DNA from: a bacterium | Lineage (GTDB): Bacteria; Patescibacteriota; Minisyncoccia; Phycocordibacterales; Phycocordibacteraceae | Reading direction: 5' to 3' | DNA: 38,205 bases | Assembly: GCA_027311385.1 (NCBI GenBank) | Contig: DAICZA010000002.1 | Location: 21,327 to 59,531, forward strand | Shown here: positions 270 through 11,843 of the stretch, piece after piece | How positions within the stretch are numbered: position 1 is the stretch's first letter | Layout: the number at the start of each line of letters is the position of its first letter | Position numbers and translations under genes: made by a program | The notes under the pieces: model-generated | The model's input: only the letters and a program-made list of their open reading frames with translations | Databases searched by the model: none | Told to the model about the DNA's origin: nothing

Positions 270-2417
270 ATGAACAGAGACTATCCGCTTGAGAAGGTTC
301 GCAACTTCGGCATCATCGCGCACATTGACGCGGGCAAGACGACCGCGAGCGAGCGCATTCTTTTCTATACCGGCAGCCAGCACAAAATCGGCGAAGTGCA
401 CGAGGGCGAGACGACCACCGACTGGATGGAACAGGAGCGCGAGCGCGGCATCACCATCACCGCCGCCGCTATTACCTGTTTCTGGGCGAAGACCGCCGAG
501 AAGGATAAGAAGGACCTCTCAAAGAAGTACCGATTCAACATCATTGATACGCCGGGACACATAGACTTCACCGCCGAAGTGAAGCGGTCAATGCGCGTGC
601 TGGACGGTGCGGTCGTCGTCTTTGACGGCGTCGCGGGCGTAGAGCCGCAGTCTGAGACCAACTGGCGCTACGCCGATGAAGCACAGGTGCCGCGCATTTG
701 TTTCATTAATAAACTGGACCGCACCGGCGCATCATTTGAGCGTTCCTATGCGAGCATCTTGGACCGGCTCTCGCCGAAGGCCATCCGTATGCAGATTCCC
801 ATCGGCGAAGAGGGTCAGCACGAAGGTTCCGTGGACCTGCTCACGATGAAGGCGTACACCTTCTCGGGGAATATGGGCGAGGAAGTTATTGAGGGAGAAA
901 TTCCGGCGAACCTGCTTGAAGATGCGAAGAAGTACCGCGCCGAACTCATTGAGCGCATCGTGGAGCAGGATGACGCGGCGATGAGCGCGTATCTGGAGGG
1001 CAAGGAGCCCTCGCTTGAAGAGCTGAAGACGCTTCTGCGCAAGGCGGTCATCAACAACGAAATCTTCCCGGTCTATACGGGTTCCGCCCTGAAGAACAAG
1101 GGCGTTCAGCTCGTGCTGGATGCCGTCGTAGACTATCTTCCGTCGCCATTGGACCTCAAGCCGGTCACCGGCACGAATCCGAAAACCGGCGAGCCGGTTG
1201 AGCGCCACGCGTCCGACGAAGAGCCGTTCTGCGCACTCGCGTTCAAACTCCAGACCGACCCGTTCGTGGGCGCGCTGACCTTCTTCCGCGTCTACTCGGG
1301 CACGCTCTCCGCCGGTTCATATGTGTACAACTCCACGACCGGAAGCAAGGAACGCGTCGGCCGTATCGTCCGGCTCCAGGCCGACAAGCGCGAAGAAGTC
1401 GCGCAAGTATTTACCGGCGAAATCGCCGCCGCCGTCGGCCTCAAGGACACGAAGACCTCGCACACGCTCTGCGACGAGGCGAATCCGATTGTGCTTGAGG
1501 AAATCAAATTCCCCGAGCCGGTAGTTAGCTTGCGCATTGAGCCGAAAACCAAGGCCGACCAGGAGAAGATGGGCGTCGCGCTCCGAAAACTCTCGGACGA
1601 AGACCCGACGTTCCGCATCAAGACCGACGACGAGACGAACGAAACCATTATCTCCGGCATGGGCGAGCTCCACTTGGAAATTCTCGTGGACCGCATGAAG
1701 CGCGAATTCAACGTCGTTGCGGATGTGGGCAAGCCGCAGGTGGCGTACCGCGAGACGATTCTCGGCAGCGCCGACGCGGAAGGGAAGTACATCAAGCAGA
1801 CCGGCGGGCGCGGCCAGTACGGGCACGTGAAGATCAAGATGAAGAAGATGGAGCCGGTAGACCCGGAGGCGAAGGTGGCGAAGAACGTCACGCGCGAGGA
1901 CCACTTTGAGTTCATCAACAACATCAAAGGCGGCGTGATTCCGCAAGAATTCATCAGTCCGGTGGAAAAGGGCCTCCGCGAGGCGATGGCACGCGGCTTC
2001 CTCGCCGGCTTCCCGATGGTGGACATCTCGGTGGACCTCTACGACGGCAGTTACCACGACGTGGACTCCAGCGAAATCGCCTTCAAGATTGCCGCATCTA
2101 TGGCGTTCCAGGAAGCGGCTGCGAAAGCAAAGGCCGTCATTCTGGAACCGATTATGCGCGTGGAAGTCATCGTGCCGGAGCAGTTCATGGGCGACATCAC
2201 CGGCAACCTCTCAGGCAAGCGCGGGCAGATAGAGGGCATGGAGGAACGCGGCCTGAACAAGGTCGTGCACGCGAAAGTTCCGCTTTCCGAGATGTTCGGC
2301 TACACCACGACGCTCCGCTCTATGACCGAAGGCCGCGGAAGTATGACGATGGAATTTGACCATTACGACGTCGTCCCGAAGAACGTCGCGGACGATATCA
2401 TCGCGAGCCGGAAATAG
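270..2417 (+). CDS. fusA: elongation factor G
   Basis: [19 protein letters not shown] and NKLD GTPase motifs, GMGELHLE; 715 aa. Confidence 0.99.
2386..2417 (+). repeat. fusA 3'-end direct repeat, copy 1 (in gene)
   Basis: tcgcggacgatatcatcgcgagccggaaatag; 29/32 identical to 2785-2816. Confidence 0.9.
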
Positions 2418-2430
2418 ATAAGTACCGTTT

Positions 2431-2483
2431 GTACAAGGTGGAACCTTGTACGTAACAGCGGCCGCCCGAAGGGCGGCCGCTGT
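2431..2483 (+). terminator. two hairpins after fusA (palindrome plus GC-rich stem)
   Basis: gtacaaggt-gga-accttgtac (2431-2451) and acagcggccgccc-gaa-gggcggccgctgt (2455-2483); weak U-tract. Confidence 0.55.
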
Positions 2484-2497
2484 GGTATCGTTTCTGC

Positions 2498-2728
2498 ATG
2501 AGCACCGTGACCTATATGGTAATTTCCATGGTGAGCTTCCCAGTTTTGATTGGCTATGTGTTCGTTAGACTTGCGTTCCCCTCCCGGAGACGGCCGAAGC
2601 CGGGTACAGCAGTCCAGCCACCGCTCACCAGAGGGGTCCCGACGTGGGTCATCGTCCTCCTTATTCTCTTAGTTCTTCCAGGCGTGGTTCTCGCGCTGAT
2701 CATCTCACGCCTCTTCTCGGGAGGGTGA
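2498..2728 (+). CDS. small two-TM membrane protein (cargo between the fusA repeats)
   Basis: 76 aa with two hydrophobic segments; TGg-TATCGT -10 box ends 6 nt before the ATG. Confidence 0.7.
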   Translation: MSTVTYMVISMVSFPVLIGYVFVRLAFPSRRRPKPGTAVQPPLTRGVPTWVIVLLILLVLPGVVLALIISRLFSGG

Positions 2729-2744
2729 TTTTCTTGTCAGTCGC

Positions 2745-2784
2745 TTCCAGTACCTACTGAGAGAATGCCTTTGTGGTACTGGGA
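2745..2784. repeat. hairpin repeat (ACC(T)AC/GTGGT-NN-GGG family)
   Basis: ttccagtacc...ggtactggga inverted repeat directly abutting fusA repeat copy 2. Confidence 0.6.
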
Positions 2785-2816
2785 TCGCGGATGACATCAT
2801 CGCGAGCCGGAAATAA
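2785..2816 (+). repeat. fusA 3'-end direct repeat, copy 2 (orphan ADDIIASRK*)
   Basis: tcgcggatgacatcatcgcgagccggaaataa; differences are only GAC/GAT, GAT/GAC and TAG/TAA. Confidence 0.9.
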
Positions 2817-2832
2817 TTTAGTTTACAAAAGT

Positions 2833-2866
2833 AAAACGGCGAGCATTGCGGCTCGCCGTTTTGTTT
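2833..2866. terminator. bidirectional intrinsic terminator
   Basis: aaaacggcgagc-attgcg-gctcgccgtttt. Confidence 0.8.
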
Positions 2867-2880
2867 GGGGAAAGGTGGGC

Positions 2881-3231
2881 TTACTCGATGCCGAGGCTCC
2901 TTTTGTAGATGTCTTTGATGAACTCAGTTTGTGATGCGAATGCTGTTTTTGATGACTCGTCCATTCGATCCCAGACCTTCTCCATCTGTTTTGCAAGTTC
3001 GGGATTTTGGCCGCGGGTCTGTTCGCGCTGAGTCTGGATGTTCGCAAGGCTTTGACGGTACGAGCGCAAAGCATTATCCAGGCTTTTTTGCATATCGGTC
3101 CTTGCGCGGGCCATGATGGCCTGACTGTGGACGGCATGCGCCGCGCGGAGCTTACGGATCTGTGCGTCTCCCCAGGCCGTGATCTCTTTCTCGGCCGCGG
3201 CGACTAATTCATCAATAGTGGGATTGGTCAT
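2881..3231 (-). CDS. hypothetical alpha-helical/coiled-coil protein (116 aa)
   Basis: Start re-assigned to MTNPT at 3231, which has a GAGGAG SD; ends near the 2833-2866 terminator. Confidence 0.7.
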   Translation of the reverse strand: MTNPTIDELVAAAEKEITAWGDAQIRKLRAAHAVHSQAIMARARTDMQKSLDNALRSYRQSLANIQTQREQTRGQNPELAKQMEKVWDRMDESSKTAFASQTEFIKDIYKRSLGIE

Positions 3232-3343
3232 GTGGCACTCCTCGTTGGTGGCGGATTGACAGGGTACTCCACGATTACATATCCCATATTTTATAGATAG
3301 AATCAATCGCATCGGAATGTAGTGCATTTGCACACCCTGCATA

Positions 3344-3377: not shown

Positions 3378-3505
3378 ATGCAGCGTCGACAGAATCTTCT
3401 CGGCCTCCTCCTTACCACCAACGGTGGAGGGTTCGGCCGTGTCTAGATTCTAAAAGAAACCAGATACAACCGAGAGCCTCCACCAGGAGGCTCTCGGTTC
3501 GTTTT
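3378..3505 (+). promoter_or_regulatory. candidate Leu-responsive transcription attenuator (leader peptide 3378-3446 plus terminator 3468-3505)
   Basis: Leader MQRRQNLLGLLLTTNGGGFGRV*; terminator aaccgagagcctcc-acca-ggaggctctcggtt-cgtttt; alternative pairings are available. Confidence 0.6.
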
Positions 3506-4389: not shown

Positions 4390-5595
<1,206 letters not shown>

Positions 5596-5603
5596 CTACT
5601 TGC

Positions 5604-6044
5604 ATGGCAACAGCGGCAAAACCGAAAGCAAAACCGGCGGCGAAGAAAGCCGCGGCAAAGGTCGCGGCGCCCGCGAAGCGCGCATCCGCGCCGCGGGCGA
5701 AAGCCCCGGCCAAGAAGGCCGCCACGGCCGCTCCGGCGGAGCACAAGCTCCGCATCCGCGTCCGCGCCTATGAGCACAAGATTCTGGACCTCTCGGTGAA
5801 GCAGATTATGGACACTGCCGCCCGCTTTGACGCCGTCGTCGTCGGCCCCGTGCCGCTCCCGACCGAAATCAAGCGCTGGACGGTGAACCGCTCTACGTTC
5901 GTCTACAAGGATGCGCGCGAGCAGTTTGAAATGCGCGTCCACAAGCGCCTCATTGATATCATGAACCCGTCCCCGAAGGTGATTGAGGCCCTCACGAACC
6001 TCAATTTACCCTCCGGTGTGACGATAGACGTCAAGATGGTCTAA
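5604..6044 (+). CDS. rpsJ: 30S ribosomal protein S10 with an N-terminal Ala/Lys/Pro-rich extension
   Basis: LRIRVRAYEH, GPVPLPT, REQFEMRVHKRLIDI. Confidence 0.97.
   Translation: MATAAKPKAKPAAKKAAAKVAAPAKRASAPRAKAPAKKAATAAPAEHKLRIRVRAYEHKILDLSVKQIMDTAARFDAVVVGPVPLPTEIKRWTVNRSTFVYKDAREQFEMRVHKRLIDIMNPSPKVIEALTNLNLPSGVTIDVKMV
5984..6044 (+). repeat. rpsJ 3'-end direct repeat, copy 1 (in gene)
   Basis: 61 nt; 53/61 identical to 7657-7717. Confidence 0.95.
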
Positions 6045-6061
6045 CTTCGCTCGGTTGGGCG

Positions 6062-6099
6062 AACAACACAGACGGTCCCGGTGACCGTCTGTGTTGTTT
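6062..6099. terminator. intrinsic terminator after rpsJ
   Basis: aacaacacagacggtc-ccggt-gaccgtctgtgttgtt, a 16-bp perfect stem. Confidence 0.8.
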
Positions 6100-6144
6100 A
6101 GTATGGGTGTGCGACGGTGTGCTACTGTAAAAGCACATCGAGGT

Positions 6145-7659
6145 ATGCAAGATGCGCTCAAAGACTTCGTATTGCAAGAACGAAAGAGAGGCGTTTCCGA
6201 CTCTGATATCACCCATGCTTTGCAAGGCGCGGGATGGCAGGTCGCTGACATCGAGATGGCGCTGGCGACACTCCCGAGTACCCCGGCGTCTACGTGGCGT
6301 ATGGGCGTATTGGCAATAGGGGGAATTGTAGCCATCGCGTTTTTGGCGACACTTATCTTTCTGATGTTTCGCGCGCCGTCCGCAACGTCAACTGGCGGCA
6401 CGGCGCGCACAGTCGTTGCACCGGTCGCTTCGGCGTCTCCGCAAGATGTCTCGCCTCCAGTATCTGTCGCGCAGAGCACGACCACGAGCCAATCGACGCC
6501 GACCGCCAACACATTCGCGCTTACGAGCATCTTTTTAAAAGATGATCCGACGGCGCAGCGCATTGCGACGGGCGCACAGAGTAGTGTCGATATCCGCACG
6601 TTTTCGTTGAAGATTGGAGACGCGACTGCTGTTGGTACCGATTCCTTCGCGTATCGTCTTGTTAGTGCGTTGCGTATGCTTGGATACGTTCCCGGCTCCG
6701 CAGGCGGGCAATATATGTCGGAATCATTACTGTTTCCTTTCGAGCGGGATAACAATCTCCCCGTATCAGATATGGTCAATGCGCAGGTTCTAAAAACGCT
6801 TGACGCCGAGCTTGCAGTCCGAGAGACCAAGGACGCACAGCTCTCCGCACAATTCCCGCTCGCGAAATATGTTACGGCACCACCGGTTGTTAACGAGCCG
6901 ACGGAGGAGCATGCCGCAGCGCTGTTCACGATTGCCTTCAAGGCATTGCCGTCGCAGCTGGTTGTGTGGAATGAGAAGAACTTCCAGACCTATCTCGCCA
7001 AACAGGTGACAGGGTCGTACGCAGGACTCGGCACGCCGAACTACCGCGTTTGCCTCGCGTTCTTGTACCCGGAGTTTGGAGACGCTTGTGCGGTCATACA
7101 TAAAAAAGTGTCCGGCTTCTGGGGAAGCGACTTTTCCATTGCCACCACGCTTCTGCACGAATATGCACATTACCTCGACAAGAACCTGTATGCTCCGGAG
7201 CAGGGGACGTCACTCGGTATCATAGACACGTCAGGGTTCTACGCCATTTCATACGATACGAGCAAGGGAACGGTCACCAGTAACGGGTGGACGGAATATC
7301 CCTTCCTCAGGCCGAACGATGTCGCAAACGAGTTTGTCTCAAGTTATGCTGAAGGGTGGGGCAATGACTCTATTCATACGGCGTATGAAGACTTCGCGGA
7401 ATCATTTGCCTTATACGTGACCGGCGGGCGGATTTTCCGTGAGCTCGCAAAGACCTCTCCGGTACTGAGCGAGAAGTACTTGTGGCTCAAAGAGCACGTC
7501 TTCGGTGGGCAGGAGTACGATACGGGAGACGTCGCGAGCATCGCATATCTCAAGGCCCACGCAACTGCATCCGGAGCGGATGCCGTAGCGACCAAGGCAT
7601 TCAATGTTATTGATTACGCTACACAACTTCCAGATTTTGACTGGAGTTACACGTTCTGA
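6145..7659 (+). CDS. membrane-anchored extracellular zinc metallopeptidase (HEXXH zincin); cargo between the rpsJ repeats
   Basis: Start at ATG 6145 (GAGG upstream). Short cytoplasmic N-domain, one TM helix, S/T/P linker, LLHEYAHYLD, FVSSYA...EDFAESFALY. Confidence 0.8.
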   Translation: MQDALKDFVLQERKRGVSDSDITHALQGAGWQVADIEMALATLPSTPASTWRMGVLAIGGIVAIAFLATLIFLMFRAPSATSTGGTARTVVAPVASASPQDVSPPVSVAQSTTTSQSTPTANTFALTSIFLKDDPTAQRIATGAQSSVDIRTFSLKIGDATAVGTDSFAYRLVSALRMLGYVPGSAGGQYMSESLLFPFERDNNLPVSDMVNAQVLKTLDAELAVRETKDAQLSAQFPLAKYVTAPPVVNEPTEEHAAALFTIAFKALPSQLVVWNEKNFQTYLAKQVTGSYAGLGTPNYRVCLAFLYPEFGDACAVIHKKVSGFWGSDFSIATTLLHEYAHYLDKNLYAPEQGTSLGIIDTSGFYAISYDTSKGTVTSNGWTEYPFLRPNDVANEFVSSYAEGWGNDSIHTAYEDFAESFALYVTGGRIFRELAKTSPVLSEKYLWLKEHVFGGQEYDTGDVASIAYLKAHATASGADAVATKAFNVIDYATQLPDFDWSYTF

Positions 7660-7717
7660 GGCCCTCACGAACCTCAATTTGCCCTCCGGCGTCACCATCG
7701 ACGTCAAAATGGTGTAG
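7657..7717 (+). repeat. rpsJ 3'-end direct repeat, copy 2 (orphan EALTNLNLPSGVTIDVKMV*)
   Basis: First 24 nt identical to copy 1, then 8 third-position synonymous differences; begins in the TGA stop of the cargo gene. Confidence 0.95.
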
Positions 7718-7866
7718 CGCGCTTCCAAAACTACTGCATCTGCGTTGTTGCGACTTCGAGAATTTCTTCCGTCGTACAGCAGAGTACGCCTCCAGAAATC
7801 GCCTCCCCGTGCCTCGCAACTGAAGCTTTCTGAAGACGCTCTGGAATTCAAGGACAGCCAAGATAC

Positions 7867-9737: not shown

Positions 9738-10586
9738 ATGAAAACGTACAAGCCCACTTCCAAAAGCCGCCGCCAGATGACCACCCTGCCGTACAAGCAG
9801 TTGCTTTCGGGCGACGCGCCGCACAAGCCGCTTCTCAAGAAGAAGGGGAATCAGGGCGGTCGCAACGCGTTCGGACGCATTACGACGCGGCACCAGGGCG
9901 GCGGCCACAAGAAGCGCTTCCGCGACGTGGATTTCAAATACGACAAGAAAGATATCCCGGCGAAGATTGAGACGGTTGAATACGACCCGTTTCGCAGTGC
10001 GTTCATCGGGCTCGCGCTCTACCGGGACGGCGCGCGCCGCTACGTCATCCTGCCGAAAGAAGTGGCGGTCGGCAGCACGTTCGTCGTGTCCGAGAAGGCG
10101 CCGCTCTCGCCGGGGAACCGCCTTCCGCTCGGGAAGATTCCGGTCGGCACGTTCATCTACAACGTTGAAATTACGCCGCTCGCCGGCGCGCGCCTCGTCC
10201 GCTCGGCGGGCAACTACGCCGAAGTGGTTGCGCACGACGCGGGCTACGCACAGGTGAAACTCCCGTCAACGGAAATCCGCAAGATTTCCGACCTTTCGTG
10301 GGCCAGCATCGGCGCCGTCGGCAACGAGGAATACAATCTCGTCGTCATCGGCAAGGCCGGCCGCAGCCGCTGGCTCGGTATCCGCCCGACGGTACGCGGC
10401 ACCGCGATGAACCCGGTAGACCACCCGCACGGCGGCGGCGAAGGCCGTCAGGGCCGCGGGCTCCGCCGCGCAAAGAGCAAGTGGGGCAAGCCCACCGGCA
10501 AGGGACAGAAGACGAGGACCCCCAAAAAATACTCAAACGTGTTTATTGTCAGCAGGCGTAAAGTTGGAAAGAAACGCAAAGGTTAG
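9738..10586 (+). CDS. rplB: 50S ribosomal protein L2
   Basis: GRNAFGRIT, EYDP, VRGTAMNPVDHPHGGGEG. Confidence 0.99.
   Translation: MKTYKPTSKSRRQMTTLPYKQLLSGDAPHKPLLKKKGNQGGRNAFGRITTRHQGGGHKKRFRDVDFKYDKKDIPAKIETVEYDPFRSAFIGLALYRDGARRYVILPKEVAVGSTFVVSEKAPLSPGNRLPLGKIPVGTFIYNVEITPLAGARLVRSAGNYAEVVAHDAGYAQVKLPSTEIRKISDLSWASIGAVGNEEYNLVVIGKAGRSRWLGIRPTVRGTAMNPVDHPHGGGEGRQGRGLRRAKSKWGKPTGKGQKTRTPKKYSNVFIVSRRKVGKKRKG
10527..10586 (+). repeat. rplB 3'-end repeat, copy 1 (in gene, AT-rich codons)
   Basis: Encodes KYSNVFIVSRRKVGKKRKG*. Confidence 0.92.
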
Positions 10587-10594
10587 CCGACCTG

Positions 10595-10635
10595 CCCCGT
10601 AGCCAACCGAGCGAAGCGAGGTTGTGGTACCGGGG
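10595..10635. repeat. hairpin repeat (CCCC.../GTGGT-NN-GGGG family) between the rplB repeats
   Basis: ccccgtagccaacc-gagcgaagcga-ggttgtggtaccgggg. Confidence 0.65.
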
Positions 10636-10637
10636 AG

Positions 10638-10697
10638 AAGTACTCAAACGTCTTCATCGTCTCCCGCCGCAAGGTCGGCAAAAAGAGGAAAGGATAA
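10638..10697 (+). repeat. rplB 3'-end repeat, copy 2 (orphan, host-like codons)
   Basis: Same 19-aa peptide; 14 of 19 codons plus the stop differ synonymously; shared core tactcaaacgt. Confidence 0.92.
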
Positions 10698-10734
10698 TTT
10701 TACAAAGCACCCAGTAGGCGATTCTGCTGAATCG

Positions 10735-10764
10735 AAAAGCTCCGCACATTCGTGCGGGGCTTTT
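10735..10764. terminator. intrinsic terminator
   Basis: aaaagctccgcac-attc-gtgcggggctttt. Confidence 0.75.
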
Positions 10765-10827: not shown

Positions 10828-11049
10828 ATGATGAAGAACGCAGATAGCGGAGTACGACCTATTTCAGAGGAAATGAGACGGCGAATCGAAGCAGGTCTTC
10901 GCGATTTGAGCGATCCCAATTCAGTTACACGGAGACGTTATAACGCGGCCGCGGAGAAAGGGGTCAAGTTGCTCAAGCCACTTGAAGATGTCATCGCCAG
11001 GTCGGAATGTCTGACCGAGTCTGATTTAGACATCGTCATAAATGTATGA
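10828..11049 (+). CDS. hypothetical protein (about 73 aa)
   Basis: AAGGAG SD before MMKNAD; TGc-TATAGT upstream; terminator at 11056-11087. Confidence 0.65.
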   Translation: MMKNADSGVRPISEEMRRRIEAGLRDLSDPNSVTRRRYNAAAEKGVKLLKPLEDVIARSECLTESDLDIVINV

Positions 11050-11055
11050 CACAAA

Positions 11056-11087
11056 GGCCGTTCCCTCGGGAACGGCCCGTGGTTTTT
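11056..11087. terminator. terminator between convergent genes
   Basis: ggccgttccc-tc-gggaacggcc followed by a T-tract. Confidence 0.7.
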
Positions 11088-11843
11088 TTATCTGTACTCC
11101 GGCTTCAGGATGTTCGCGAGTTCTGATGTTGGAATACGGAGCGTTTGCGGTCCGGCGGCATAGGGGGCGACCGCGTAGGGAGGGAAGAGAATGACGAGAT
11201 TTTGGTTATCAAAAAAGAAGTTTGCAAAATTCTTATCGTCGGGCGTCGTGCCGGGGTTGATGAAGGCCGCGTCGGCGCCTTGGCCGATGATAGCGGGGAG
11301 TTTTGCGCGCGCGAGCGACGAGAGCGTGCCGAGATAGTCCGCACCCGGCGCAAACAGGTCGGCGAGCGTGAGCGCCGCGCCGCTTGTCGTGTCAAAGGTG
11401 AAGGTCTTGAAGAATGTGTTGCCGTGCGCGCCGAGCGTGTCCTCGTAGACGGTGAAGATGTAGGAGACGGTGTGCGACGACGACGCGGTGAGGTACACGA
11501 TGTTGAGTGTCTCTTTGCGTCCGGCGCCGAGACCAATCTTCGCGGCGTCCTGCGGCGTGAGCGTAGCGAAATTGCCGTCAGACTTGAATTGCGCGATGGT
11601 GTCGGCGACGAAACGCTTCATCTCTGCCACGGCGACGGTGTTTTCGGCGGCGGCGAGCGGCGTGCTGGTCGCATAATTGGCGGCGATATCGTAGTAAGGT
11701 GCGTGTTCTACGTAGTGGTTCCCCGGCAGGGCGACGGTCGCTCCGGGTGCCTTCGCCGGCACCGGGCGCGTGGCGGCGTAGAGGACAATACCGATGAAAA
11801 TGACGAGTATGACGGCTATCCCAATGTAGGTATTTCTCTGCAT
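11088..11843 (-). CDS. membrane-anchored RsiV/PdaC-like (DUF3298-type) protein
   Basis: N-terminal TM; GAHGN, LTLADLF and F.PY.VAPYAAG motifs. Confidence 0.8.
   Translation of the reverse strand: MQRNTYIGIAVILVIFIGIVLYAATRPVPAKAPGATVALPGNHYVEHAPYYDIAANYATSTPLAAAENTVAVAEMKRFVADTIAQFKSDGNFATLTPQDAAKIGLGAGRKETLNIVYLTASSSHTVSYIFTVYEDTLGAHGNTFFKTFTFDTTSGAALTLADLFAPGADYLGTLSSLARAKLPAIIGQGADAAFINPGTTPDDKNFANFFFDNQNLVILFPPYAVAPYAAGPQTLRIPTSELANILKPEYR

What the first reader, a model, noticed from the sequence alone, without database searches (positions are those of the whole stretch)
2386..2816. 399-bp fusA-tail cassette with one leaderless membrane micro-gene
A 32-nt repeat (ADDIIASRK*, 3 silent differences) brackets two hairpins, an extended -10 box, a 76-aa two-TM gene and a hairpin ending GTGGTACTGGGA that abuts the second tail. 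The rplB second tail is likewise preceded by GTGGTACCGGGGA. The unit is self-contained and can be expressed independently.
Basis: seen in the sequence. Interest (0 to 1): 0.7.

Follow-up and report, generated by a model that had tools for sequence, protein, structure and literature searches.

The report
Hairpin cassette replacing the fusA tail
A 399-base insert sits inside the end of the essential gene fusA of an ultra-small (Parcubacteria) bacterium and brings its own copy of the last ten codons, so the gene stays whole; it belongs to a family of hairpin-ended inserts that do the same at many gene ends in this group.

Summary
The fusA tail is duplicated 399 bp apart with 3 silent differences. 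The interval holds two strong hairpins, a -10-like box, a 76-aa two-segment hydrophobic ORF and a terminal hairpin whose 3' arm is GTGGTACTGGG. The motif is not a free signal. It is the 3' arm of a ~46-nt REP-like palindrome ("EL"): 5 canonical copies in this 638-kb genome, 7 of 36 genus relatives with one copy, stem supported by covariation. Of 8 exact motif copies genome-wide (control 1), 6 directly abut an orphan copy of a gene end, 3 tails and 3 heads. Functional and orphan copies differ almost only synonymously (148:24 codons; random placement 50:114). At rplB and a GTPase gene the orphan is the genus-typical native end and the functional end is atypical. So the unit is an insertion that carries a replacement gene end. 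The fusA 3' end is a recurrent hot spot in relatives, with toxin-antitoxin and other cargo. The genome has five RAYT-like Y1 transposase genes, and two lie inside such cassettes. The 76-aa ORF has no homologue, so its expression stays unproven. Earlier notes of this scan describe the same anatomy in other genomes. Verdict: new variant of a known kind; mechanism inferred.

The parts
270..2417 (+). fusA (EF-G), 715 aa, ending in the replacement tail
   Evidence: ORF list. 95 of 100 genus relatives match its last 300 nt.
2386..2417 (+). Replacement (functional) tail, repeat copy 1, ..ADDIIASRK*
   Evidence: Reading it as the imported copy is by analogy with rplB and the GTPase head. At fusA itself the two tails are too alike to tell.
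2430..2452 (+). Hairpin 1 after the tail
   Evidence: Fold of 2418-2500. Hairpins at the same place in relatives G010, G023, G030 and G085.
2455..2483 (+). G+C-rich hairpin 2, terminator-like
   Evidence: A near-identical hairpin follows fusA in the closest relatives G103 and G034, and in G010.
2481..2491 (+). -10-like box TGTGGTATCGT, 6 nt before the ATG
   Evidence: Sequence. The same box stands in G010. TGTGGTATAAT stands 7 nt before a cargo ATG in G031 and G081. Not flagged by the consensus scan. Function not tested.
2498..2728 (+). 76-aa ORF with two hydrophobic segments; cargo candidate, unproven gene
   Evidence: self-hit only; GC3 0.66 against 0.79-0.81 in core genes.
2745..2784 (+). 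Terminal hairpin (EL-prime); its 3' arm carries GTGGTACTGGG and it ends at the junction with the orphan tail
   Evidence: G010 has a hairpin with a compensatory stem change at the same junction position.
2785..2816 (+). Orphan (displaced, probably native) fusA tail, repeat copy 2
   Evidence: The orphan tail of G081 and the bases after it are nearly the same.
2833..2862 (.). Hairpin terminator after the orphan tail
10527..10586 (+). rplB replacement tail (19 codons and stop), GC3 0.42
10590..10635 (+). Canonical EL palindrome after rplB
   Evidence: nhmmer E 1.3e-15; fold; covariation.
10638..10697 (+). Orphan native rplB tail, GC3 0.79
   Evidence: 23 of 25 comparable relatives have a single tail closer to this copy.
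5984..6044 (+). rpsJ functional tail (repeat copy 1)
   Evidence: 8 differences, all synonymous.
6091..7659 (+). 522-aa cargo ORF between the two rpsJ tails
   Evidence: no family.
7657..7717 (+). Orphan rpsJ tail (repeat copy 2)
   Evidence: A contig of run X4 joins 6046 to 7865 with 38 other letters, so a variant lacks the ORF and the orphan tail.

Best explanation
The 399-bp unit is a piece of foreign DNA inserted 30 nt before the native stop codon of fusA. Its left end is a copy of the last ten fusA codons with a stop, so EF-G stays intact. Its body holds the donor's post-fusA terminator hairpins, a promoter-like box and one cargo ORF. Its right end is a REP-like hairpin that is joined directly to the displaced native tail. 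The likely two-step mechanism is inferred, not shown. First, a small palindromic element, moved by one of the genome's RAYT-like Y1 (HUH) transposases, settles just outside a gene end in one lineage. Second, a DNA fragment cut exactly at the 3' foot of that hairpin enters a related lineage. It is fixed on one side by homology with the conserved gene. On the hairpin side it is joined, by the nuclease or by illegitimate recombination, a few codons inside the resident gene end. The result is gene, imported end, cargo, hairpin and then the orphaned native end. Copies whose two ends differ at silent sites resist deletion by recombination and so persist.
For: SHOWN. (1) The anatomy at fusA.
(2) The same anatomy recurs in this genome. 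It is seen at rplB, rpsJ and rny (C42), at two convergent genes on C9, and at a PIF1-like helicase (C11). It is also seen at three gene heads (C9, C12 tsaD, C33 GTPase).
(3) The motif is the arm of a 46-nt palindrome. It has 5 copies at E <= 2.4e-13 and the next hit is at E 0.12. 98.2% of cells pair, 4 pairs carry compensatory changes, and 0 of 500 shuffles reach the score.
(4) The palindrome occurs in 7 of 36 same-genus genomes and in 0 of 24 genomes of other families of the order. It occurs at 12 loci of Parcubacteria-type genomes in the species collection.
(5) In 13 of 17 element loci put through an automatic scan, a copy of the adjacent gene end was recognisable on the far side of the hairpin.
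(6) Over 22 pairs the functional and orphan copies differ at 148 synonymous and 24 non-synonymous codons. Random placement gives 50 and 114, and 0 of 1000 simulations reach the observed value. Both copies therefore evolved as coding sequence.
(7) Polarity. For rplB, 23 of 25 comparable relatives have a native tail closer to our orphan, and the sequence after the orphan matches what follows their tail. For the GTPase, 29 of 29 relatives start M-E-I like our orphan head; 25 are closer to it, 4 tie and none is closer to the functional head. GC3 is 0.55 in functional copies and 0.71 in orphan copies over 112 codons, against about 0.8 in core genes.
(8) fusA is a hot spot. 9 relatives carry a second partial fusA 3' copy on the same contig, 35-190 nt long. 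The cargo includes RelE/ParE-like pairs, a HEPN/MNT pair and membrane ORFs, and three relatives have a third tail. G081, G016 and G010 have a hairpin followed by an orphan fusA tail.
(9) The closest relatives, G103 and G034, lack the cassette.
(10) The genome has five Y1_Tnp genes, each flanked by its own palindromes. The C9 gene's two hairpins each abut an orphan tail. The C11 gene lies between 35/35-identical helicase tails.
INFERRED: that a Y1 enzyme cuts at the hairpin foot, that the other side is resolved by homology, and that the cargo ORF is expressed.
Against: No Y1 gene is flanked by the EL palindrome, neither the 5 in this genome nor the 14 hits in five relatives. Its enzyme is therefore unidentified.
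The fusA hairpin shares only the 3' arm with EL and folds weakly.
At fusA itself the polarity is not resolved. The two tails differ by 3 nt and relatives do not discriminate. The hairpins after tail 1 resemble the native post-fusA hairpin of the closest relatives, which fits a related donor but also fits tail 1 being native.
Most fusA duplications in relatives have no hairpin at the junction, so a hairpin is not required.
Some repeats are identical: G031 188/188, G078 89/89, C11 35/35. That also fits duplication in place.
At rny the spacer and element are 51/51 identical between two species whose gene bodies differ by about 15%, yet both tails differ. A simple recent transfer of tail plus element does not predict this.
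Contigs show no form with the fusA cassette excised.
Confidence: 0.55

Rival explanations
1. Pure homology-facilitated illegitimate recombination ('C-terminal displacement'). DNA from relatives, taken up by the cell, is anchored by the conserved gene and joined illegitimately at the other end. No element-encoded enzyme takes part. The hairpins are ordinary terminators or REPs that happen to be fragile ends.
For: Several fusA duplications in relatives have no hairpin at the junction, and their cargo looks like contiguous donor DNA. The duplicated lengths vary from 6 to 190 nt. The same logic was proposed for orphan arrays at T6SS and Rhs loci (PMC5361080, passages read).
Against: Almost every copy of one specific palindrome found sits with its 3' foot exactly at such a junction, and the next base is T in 15 of 19 aligned copies. 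Two cassettes carry a Y1 transposase gene bounded by hairpins that abut the orphans. A random breakpoint process does not predict an exact, repeated end.
Confidence: 0.22
2. Remnant of a classical integrative element (tyrosine or serine integrase) whose attachment site lies in the 3' end of fusA, as with phage 21/e14 in icd or streptococcal elements in ribosomal-protein genes. The cassette would be a decayed, integrase-less relic.
For: The direct repeat covers the gene's 3' end and the gene is restored, which is the classical signature (established knowledge, recalled). The genome has one tyrosine and two large serine recombinases.
Against: There are many different target genes, and heads as well as tails are involved. 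Break points inside fusA vary among relatives, and some duplications are only 6-21 nt. No recombinase lies in or beside any cassette looked at. The hairpin is at one end only.
Confidence: 0.08
3. Duplication in place (a long target-site duplication, or slippage at a hairpin), followed by divergence.
For: Identical repeats in G031, G078 and C11, and 37/39 identity at C33.
Against: A neutral orphan should gather mostly non-synonymous changes, but 148:24 is observed against a null of 50:114. The functional copy, not the orphan, is the atypical one at rplB and the GTPase. The GTPase functional head has an extra codon, M-T-E against M-E.
Confidence: 0.1
4. Assembly artefact from mixed strains.
For: The genome is a metagenome bin of 47 contigs.
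Against: Independent per-run contigs span the fusA and rpsJ cassettes without differences. The same anatomy occurs in single-contig relatives and in a complete chromosome.
Confidence: 0.02

Closest known systems
REP / REPIN elements and their RAYT (TnpA_REP, HUH-Y1) genes
   Same: Short imperfect palindromes are repeated in the genome. Y1 transposase genes are each bracketed by their own palindromes. The hairpin is conserved through compensatory changes.
   Different: REPs are described as extragenic, high-copy and vertically inherited (abstracts listed). Here there are 5 copies. They sit at, or in frame within, gene ends and come with a replacement gene end. The Y1 protein scores 41.5 bits, under the 80-bit cut-off of the curated RAYT model. 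No cognate Y1 gene is known for EL.
IS200/IS605 and IS91/ISCR (HUH) elements, including one-ended transposition (recalled knowledge)
   Same: A hairpin-defined end; no conventional inverted repeats; one fixed end and one variable end that takes along neighbouring DNA.
   Different: No transposase lies inside the fusA unit. No fixed target tetranucleotide is shown. The variable end coincides with the homologous position of the target gene.
Phage 21 / e14 in icd of E. coli, and elements integrating in the 3' ends of tRNA or ribosomal-protein genes (recalled knowledge)
   Same: The insert carries a substitute 3' end with silent differences and leaves the native end as an orphan.
   Different: Those use an integrase and one fixed att core. 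They are kilobases long, and the orphan lies at the far end of a large element.
C-terminal displacement / orphan arrays at Rhs, CDI and T6SS loci (PMC5361080, passages read)
   Same: Successive incoming modules are anchored by a conserved upstream sequence and push older ends downstream, giving arrays of tail, cargo, tail, as at fusA in G010, G023 and G118.
   Different: There the displaced ends differ in function (toxin tips). Here both ends encode the same residues, and the target genes are housekeeping genes.
Mobile endonuclease ORF with a duplicated atp6 C-terminus in Allomyces mitochondria (recalled, not read)
   Same: An in-frame insert brings a new C-terminus and leaves the old one as a pseudo-tail.
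   Different: It carries a homing endonuclease. None is seen here.
Integron cassettes (attC hairpins)
   Same: Single-gene cassettes end in a folded recombination site. Toxin-antitoxin genes are typical cargo.
   Different: No intI or attI next to the arrays. The hairpin lacks clear R'/R'' core sites (by eye only). Cassettes carry pieces of the target gene.

Membership tests
REP/REPIN-RAYT system | Short imperfect palindrome present in several copies in one genome | tested here: met
   5 canonical EL copies at E <= 2.4e-13. The stem is 98.2% paired and has 4 covarying pairs.
REP/REPIN-RAYT system | A RAYT gene flanked by the same palindrome | tested here: not met
   None of the 5 Y1 genes of this genome, nor of the 14 hits in 5 relatives, has EL arms in its flanks. 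The feature is met for another hairpin family at the C9 Y1 gene.
REP/REPIN-RAYT system | The Y1 protein passes the curated RAYT model | tested here: not met
   NF047646 gives 41.5 bits against a cut-off of 80. Pfam Y1_Tnp is passed, 36.6 bits against 23.
REP/REPIN-RAYT system | Extragenic location and high copy number | tested here: not met
   The copy number is 5. The copies abut coding remnants. A related hairpin family lies in frame in tsaD and leuS.
IS200/IS605 | tnpA (Y1) between subterminal hairpins; insertion 3' of a fixed tetra- or pentanucleotide without duplication | tested here: inconclusive
   The fusA unit has no tnpA. The base after the GGGG foot is T in 15 of 19 copies. One copy in a tuf leader looks like a clean insertion of about 45 nt without duplication. 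No fixed tetranucleotide was established.
Integrase-type integrative element with att in a gene 3' end | An integrase gene within the element and one constant att core | tested here: not met
   No recombinase lies in or next to the cassettes. Break points vary from 35 to 190 nt in fusA.
Integron | intI with attI next to an array of attC-bounded cassettes | tested here: not met
   The only tyrosine recombinase is at C22:849-1379, about 20 kb before the window. attC core sites were judged by eye only.
Diversity-generating retroelement (template/variable repeat at a gene 3' end) | Differences confined to adenines of one copy; a reverse transcriptase nearby | tested here: not met
   The differences are C/T, T/C and G/A at fusA and of all kinds at rplB. 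A reverse transcriptase was not searched for.

The most novel reading that the evidence does not exclude
A so far undescribed way for small HUH/REP-type elements to spread. The hairpin element captures the end of the essential gene beside it. It then enters the same gene in other species as a gene-end-replacing cassette, so it can settle inside the most conserved operons (str, S10) without harm and ferry cargo such as toxin-antitoxin pairs. Earlier notes of this scan suggest the same anatomy in distant bacteria and in DPANN archaea, so it may be a general and overlooked class of mobile DNA.
Probability: 0.35. Interest if true: 0.8.

Novelty: new variant of a known kind. Interest (0 to 1): 0.62.

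Why it matters
Ribosomal-protein and elongation-factor operons are treated as the most stable and vertically inherited parts of bacterial genomes, and they are the backbone of phylogenomic trees. Here they are repeatedly entered by small cassettes that swap the last or first codons of fusA, rpsJ, rplB and other genes for foreign ones and drop in accessory genes. This gives a route for gene flow into tiny, streamlined CPR genomes. It is also a source of chimeric marker-gene ends and of false 'pseudogene fragments' in annotation. If the Y1 link holds, it would be a new activity for RAYT-like enzymes, whose biological role is still debated.

Tried and rejected
Rfam, permissive scan of the whole window: nothing at the hairpins; the only hit is a chance Leu-leader match at E 0.91.

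RNA evidence: no RNA holder is listed among the public runs, so the leaderless-transcript idea could not be tested.

Contigs of four runs of one study: no contig joins across the fusA cassette. Contigs drop rare variants, so this says nothing about excision.

Homologues of the 76-aa ORF: only the query itself. Pfam and NCBIfam give nothing.

DNA of the cassette body in 120 genus genomes: only the hairpins match.

The 116-aa ORF after the orphan tail: 0 of 100 relatives.

EL pattern in viral contigs: 0.

Ideas dropped:
- DGR template/variable repeat: the differences are not adenine-specific.
- Stop-codon read-through into the orphan tail: in frame at rplB, rny and fusA, but out of frame or blocked by the element's own TAG in three relatives.
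- RNA-level removal of the insert: the element keeps one orientation towards the orphan whatever the gene's strand, so the event is at the DNA level.
- The orphan plus downstream DNA as the captured foreign piece: rejected for rplB and the GTPase head.

Literature: four searches found no paper that links RAYT/REP elements with Patescibacteria or with gene-end duplication. Only listings and abstracts were seen. and one search failed on term format.

Four of the 17 element loci (L010, L012, L014, L094) were left out of the codon count because the automatic alignment was doubtful. The own_C14 pair was counted in a frame that is probably wrong.
Full report
**What is there.** The window is G000:C22:21327-59531 of a 637,727-bp, 47-contig genome with 58% G+C. 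The palindrome described below occurs otherwise only in records titled as Parcubacteria/Patescibacteria-group MAGs. fusA ends at 2417, tuf starts at 4390, rpsJ is 5604-6044 and rplB is 9738-10586.

The fusA tail is repeated at 2386-2423 and 2785-2822, 399 bp apart. There are three differences in the coding part, all silent. Between the copies lie, in order:
- two hairpins, -28 kcal/mol together, z -6.7;
- the box TGTGGTATCGT, 6 nt before an ATG;
- a 76-aa ORF with two hydrophobic segments;
- a weaker hairpin whose 3' arm GTGGTACTGGG ends one base before the second tail.

A per-run contig of a public metagenome spans 1829-3307 without a difference.

**The motif.** GTGGTACYGGG occurs 8 times in the genome, against 1 for the reversed control. 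In five places it is the 3' arm of a conserved palindrome of about 46 nt. nhmmer finds exactly five strong copies and nothing else above E 0.12. In a 19-copy alignment from this and related genomes the stem is 98.2% paired, four pairs carry compensatory changes, and 0 of 500 shuffles reach the covariation score. Rfam has no match.

Six of the 8 motif copies are followed at once by an orphan copy of the end of the neighbouring gene. Three are tails on the same strand (fusA, rplB, rny on C42). Three are heads of genes on the other strand (C9, tsaD on C12, a GTPase on C33). The other two form a palindrome inside a helicase ORF on C11.

The element always points towards the orphan, whatever the gene's strand. 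The event is therefore one of DNA, not RNA.

**Spread.** The palindrome is in 7 of 36 genomes of the genus and in 0 of 24 genomes of other families of the order. It is at 12 loci of the species collection and in no viral contig.

In relatives it again sits between a gene end and an orphan copy of that end. Examples are rpsJ, a ychF-like GTPase, two epimerase-like genes, msrB and rny. An automatic scan recognised the duplicate in 13 of 17 loci. One copy in a tuf leader looks like a plain insertion without duplication. At rpmB only six bases repeat, so that case is doubtful.

**Both copies evolved as coding sequence.** Over 22 pairs from this genome and relatives, 148 codons differ synonymously and 24 non-synonymously. 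Placing the same number of changes at random gives 50 and 114, and 0 of 1000 simulations have as few non-synonymous changes. This excludes a local duplication whose spare copy decays freely.

**Which copy is foreign.**
- rplB: the single tail of 23 of 25 comparable relatives is closer to our orphan, up to 55/60 against at most 48/60 for tail 1. Of 29 loci, one was cut by a contig end and three had tails of another length and were left out. The sequence after our orphan matches what follows their tail.
- GTPase: all 29 relatives start M-E-I like our orphan head and share its upstream region. Our functional head starts M-T-E.
- GC3 is 0.55 in functional copies and 0.71 in orphan copies, against about 0.8 in core genes.

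So the piece made of new end, spacer or cargo, and hairpin is the insert, and the orphan is the resident end.

At fusA itself the three differences do not decide. The anatomy is the same, however. G081 and G016 show fusA tail, short spacer, hairpin, then an orphan tail followed by native-type sequence. G010 has a hairpin with a compensatory stem change at the same junction position as ours.

**fusA as a hot spot.** Of 100 genus genomes, 95 match the fusA 3' end. Nine have a second partial copy within about 1.2 kb on the same contig. The copies are 35-190 nt long. Some are identical (G031 188/188, G078 89/89) and some differ at many silent sites.

The cargo differs between genomes: RelE/ParE-like pairs in four, a HEPN/nucleotidyltransferase pair, membrane ORFs, and a 341-aa ORF. 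Three genomes carry a third tail.

The two closest relatives have no cassette. There fusA is followed by the G+C hairpin, a -10-like box and a 22-aa ORF that is also present in our window at 3378-3446. The cassette body and the 116-aa ORF after the orphan tail occur in none of 120 and none of 100 relatives.

**The likely engine.** The genome has five Y1_Tnp genes, one tyrosine recombinase and two serine recombinases. Each Y1 gene is bracketed by its own palindromes, and the same holds in five relatives.

On C9 the two hairpins around the Y1 gene each abut an orphan tail of one of two convergent genes. On C11 the Y1 gene lies between 35/35-identical copies of a helicase tail. The C9-type hairpin also precedes the second fusA copy in G031.

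The C9 protein hits the curated RAYT model at 41.5 bits, below its cut-off of 80. It is RAYT-like, not a proven RAYT. No Y1 gene is flanked by EL.

**Mechanism.** The best reading is a two-step path. A REP-like hairpin settles beside a gene end. Later a fragment ending exactly at the hairpin foot moves to a relative. There homology with the conserved gene fixes one side, and the hairpin end is joined a few codons inside the resident gene end. This resembles one-ended HUH transposition (recalled knowledge) and the homology-facilitated illegitimate recombination proposed for orphan arrays at T6SS and Rhs loci (PMC5361080, passages).

Facts that do not fit neatly:
- Junctions without hairpins in relatives.
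- Identical repeats.
- At rny the spacer and element are identical between species whose tails both differ.

**The micro-gene.** The ORF has only itself as a hit among 5.8 billion clustered proteins and matches no family. Its GC3 is 0.66, like other cargo.

Its start lies where relatives have the start of other ORFs, 6-9 nt after a -10-like box that reads TGTGGTATAAT in G031 and G081. Transcription, perhaps leaderless, is therefore plausible. No RNA data exist.

**Novelty.** Inserts that bring a substitute gene end are known: e14 and phage 21 in icd (recalled), and C-terminal displacement. REP/RAYT systems are also known (listings). The combination has no description in four literature searches (listings and abstracts only). 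That combination is small hairpin-ended cassettes without an integrase that enter many housekeeping gene ends, heads as well as tails.

Earlier notes of this scan report the same anatomy at ridA, ruvA, atpB, ftsW, tuf, arsR and radA in other genomes. These are unchecked leads, not independent support.

Noticed in passing
window 5984-7717: The rpsJ tail is duplicated 1673 bp apart (8 silent differences) around a 522-aa ORF. The ORF has an N-terminal hydrophobic segment and an HEYAH (HExxH-like) motif and matches no family. A contig of run X4 joins 6046 to 7865 with 38 other letters, so a variant lacks both the ORF and the orphan tail.
   Followed up: partly
window 10712-10735 and many relatives: A second repeat family (CCCAGTAGGCGATTCTGCTGAATCG, a small hairpin) follows the orphan rplB tail. 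It recurs in many genus genomes and in the 38 letters of the X4 variant after rpsJ.
   Followed up: no
window 3378-3446: A 22-aa ORF (MQRRQNLLGLLLTTNGGGFGRV) with its upstream -10-like box is conserved after fusA in the two closest relatives. It may be a real small gene or leader peptide.
   Followed up: no
G000:C12:7872-7890, C23:3974-3992: Copies of the C9-type hairpin (TAGGACATCSGATGTCCTA) lie in frame inside tsaD and a leuS-like gene, as translated palindrome inserts.
   Followed up: no
G000:C11:63505-63533: A palindrome made of two copies of the finding's motif lies in frame inside a 569-aa PIF1-like helicase ORF, 1.1 kb from a Y1 transposase gene.
   Followed up: partly
G000:C9:2823-4655: A Y1 transposase gene with two identical hairpins sits between convergent genes. 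Each hairpin abuts an orphan tail of one of the genes, and a 163-aa ORF lies in the same interval.
   Followed up: partly
G000:C12:53-85 and C27:1484-2098: The tail scan also picked up a duplicated tRNA 3' end (T-arm sequence) on C12 and a run of three to four repeated ORF ends on C27.
   Followed up: no
window 10828-11843: Between rplB and the next ribosomal-protein gene lie a 73-aa ORF with low GC3 (0.49) and a 251-aa ORF on the opposite strand. Relatives show a homologous reverse-strand gene right after rplB in several genomes.
   Followed up: no
loci L071-L078 (relatives): The cargo between fusA tails in relatives includes RelE/ParE-like toxin-antitoxin pairs (G001, G068, G074, G078) and a HEPN/nucleotidyltransferase pair (G031, and also after fusA in G081). 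These were named by eye from ORF translations only.
   Followed up: no
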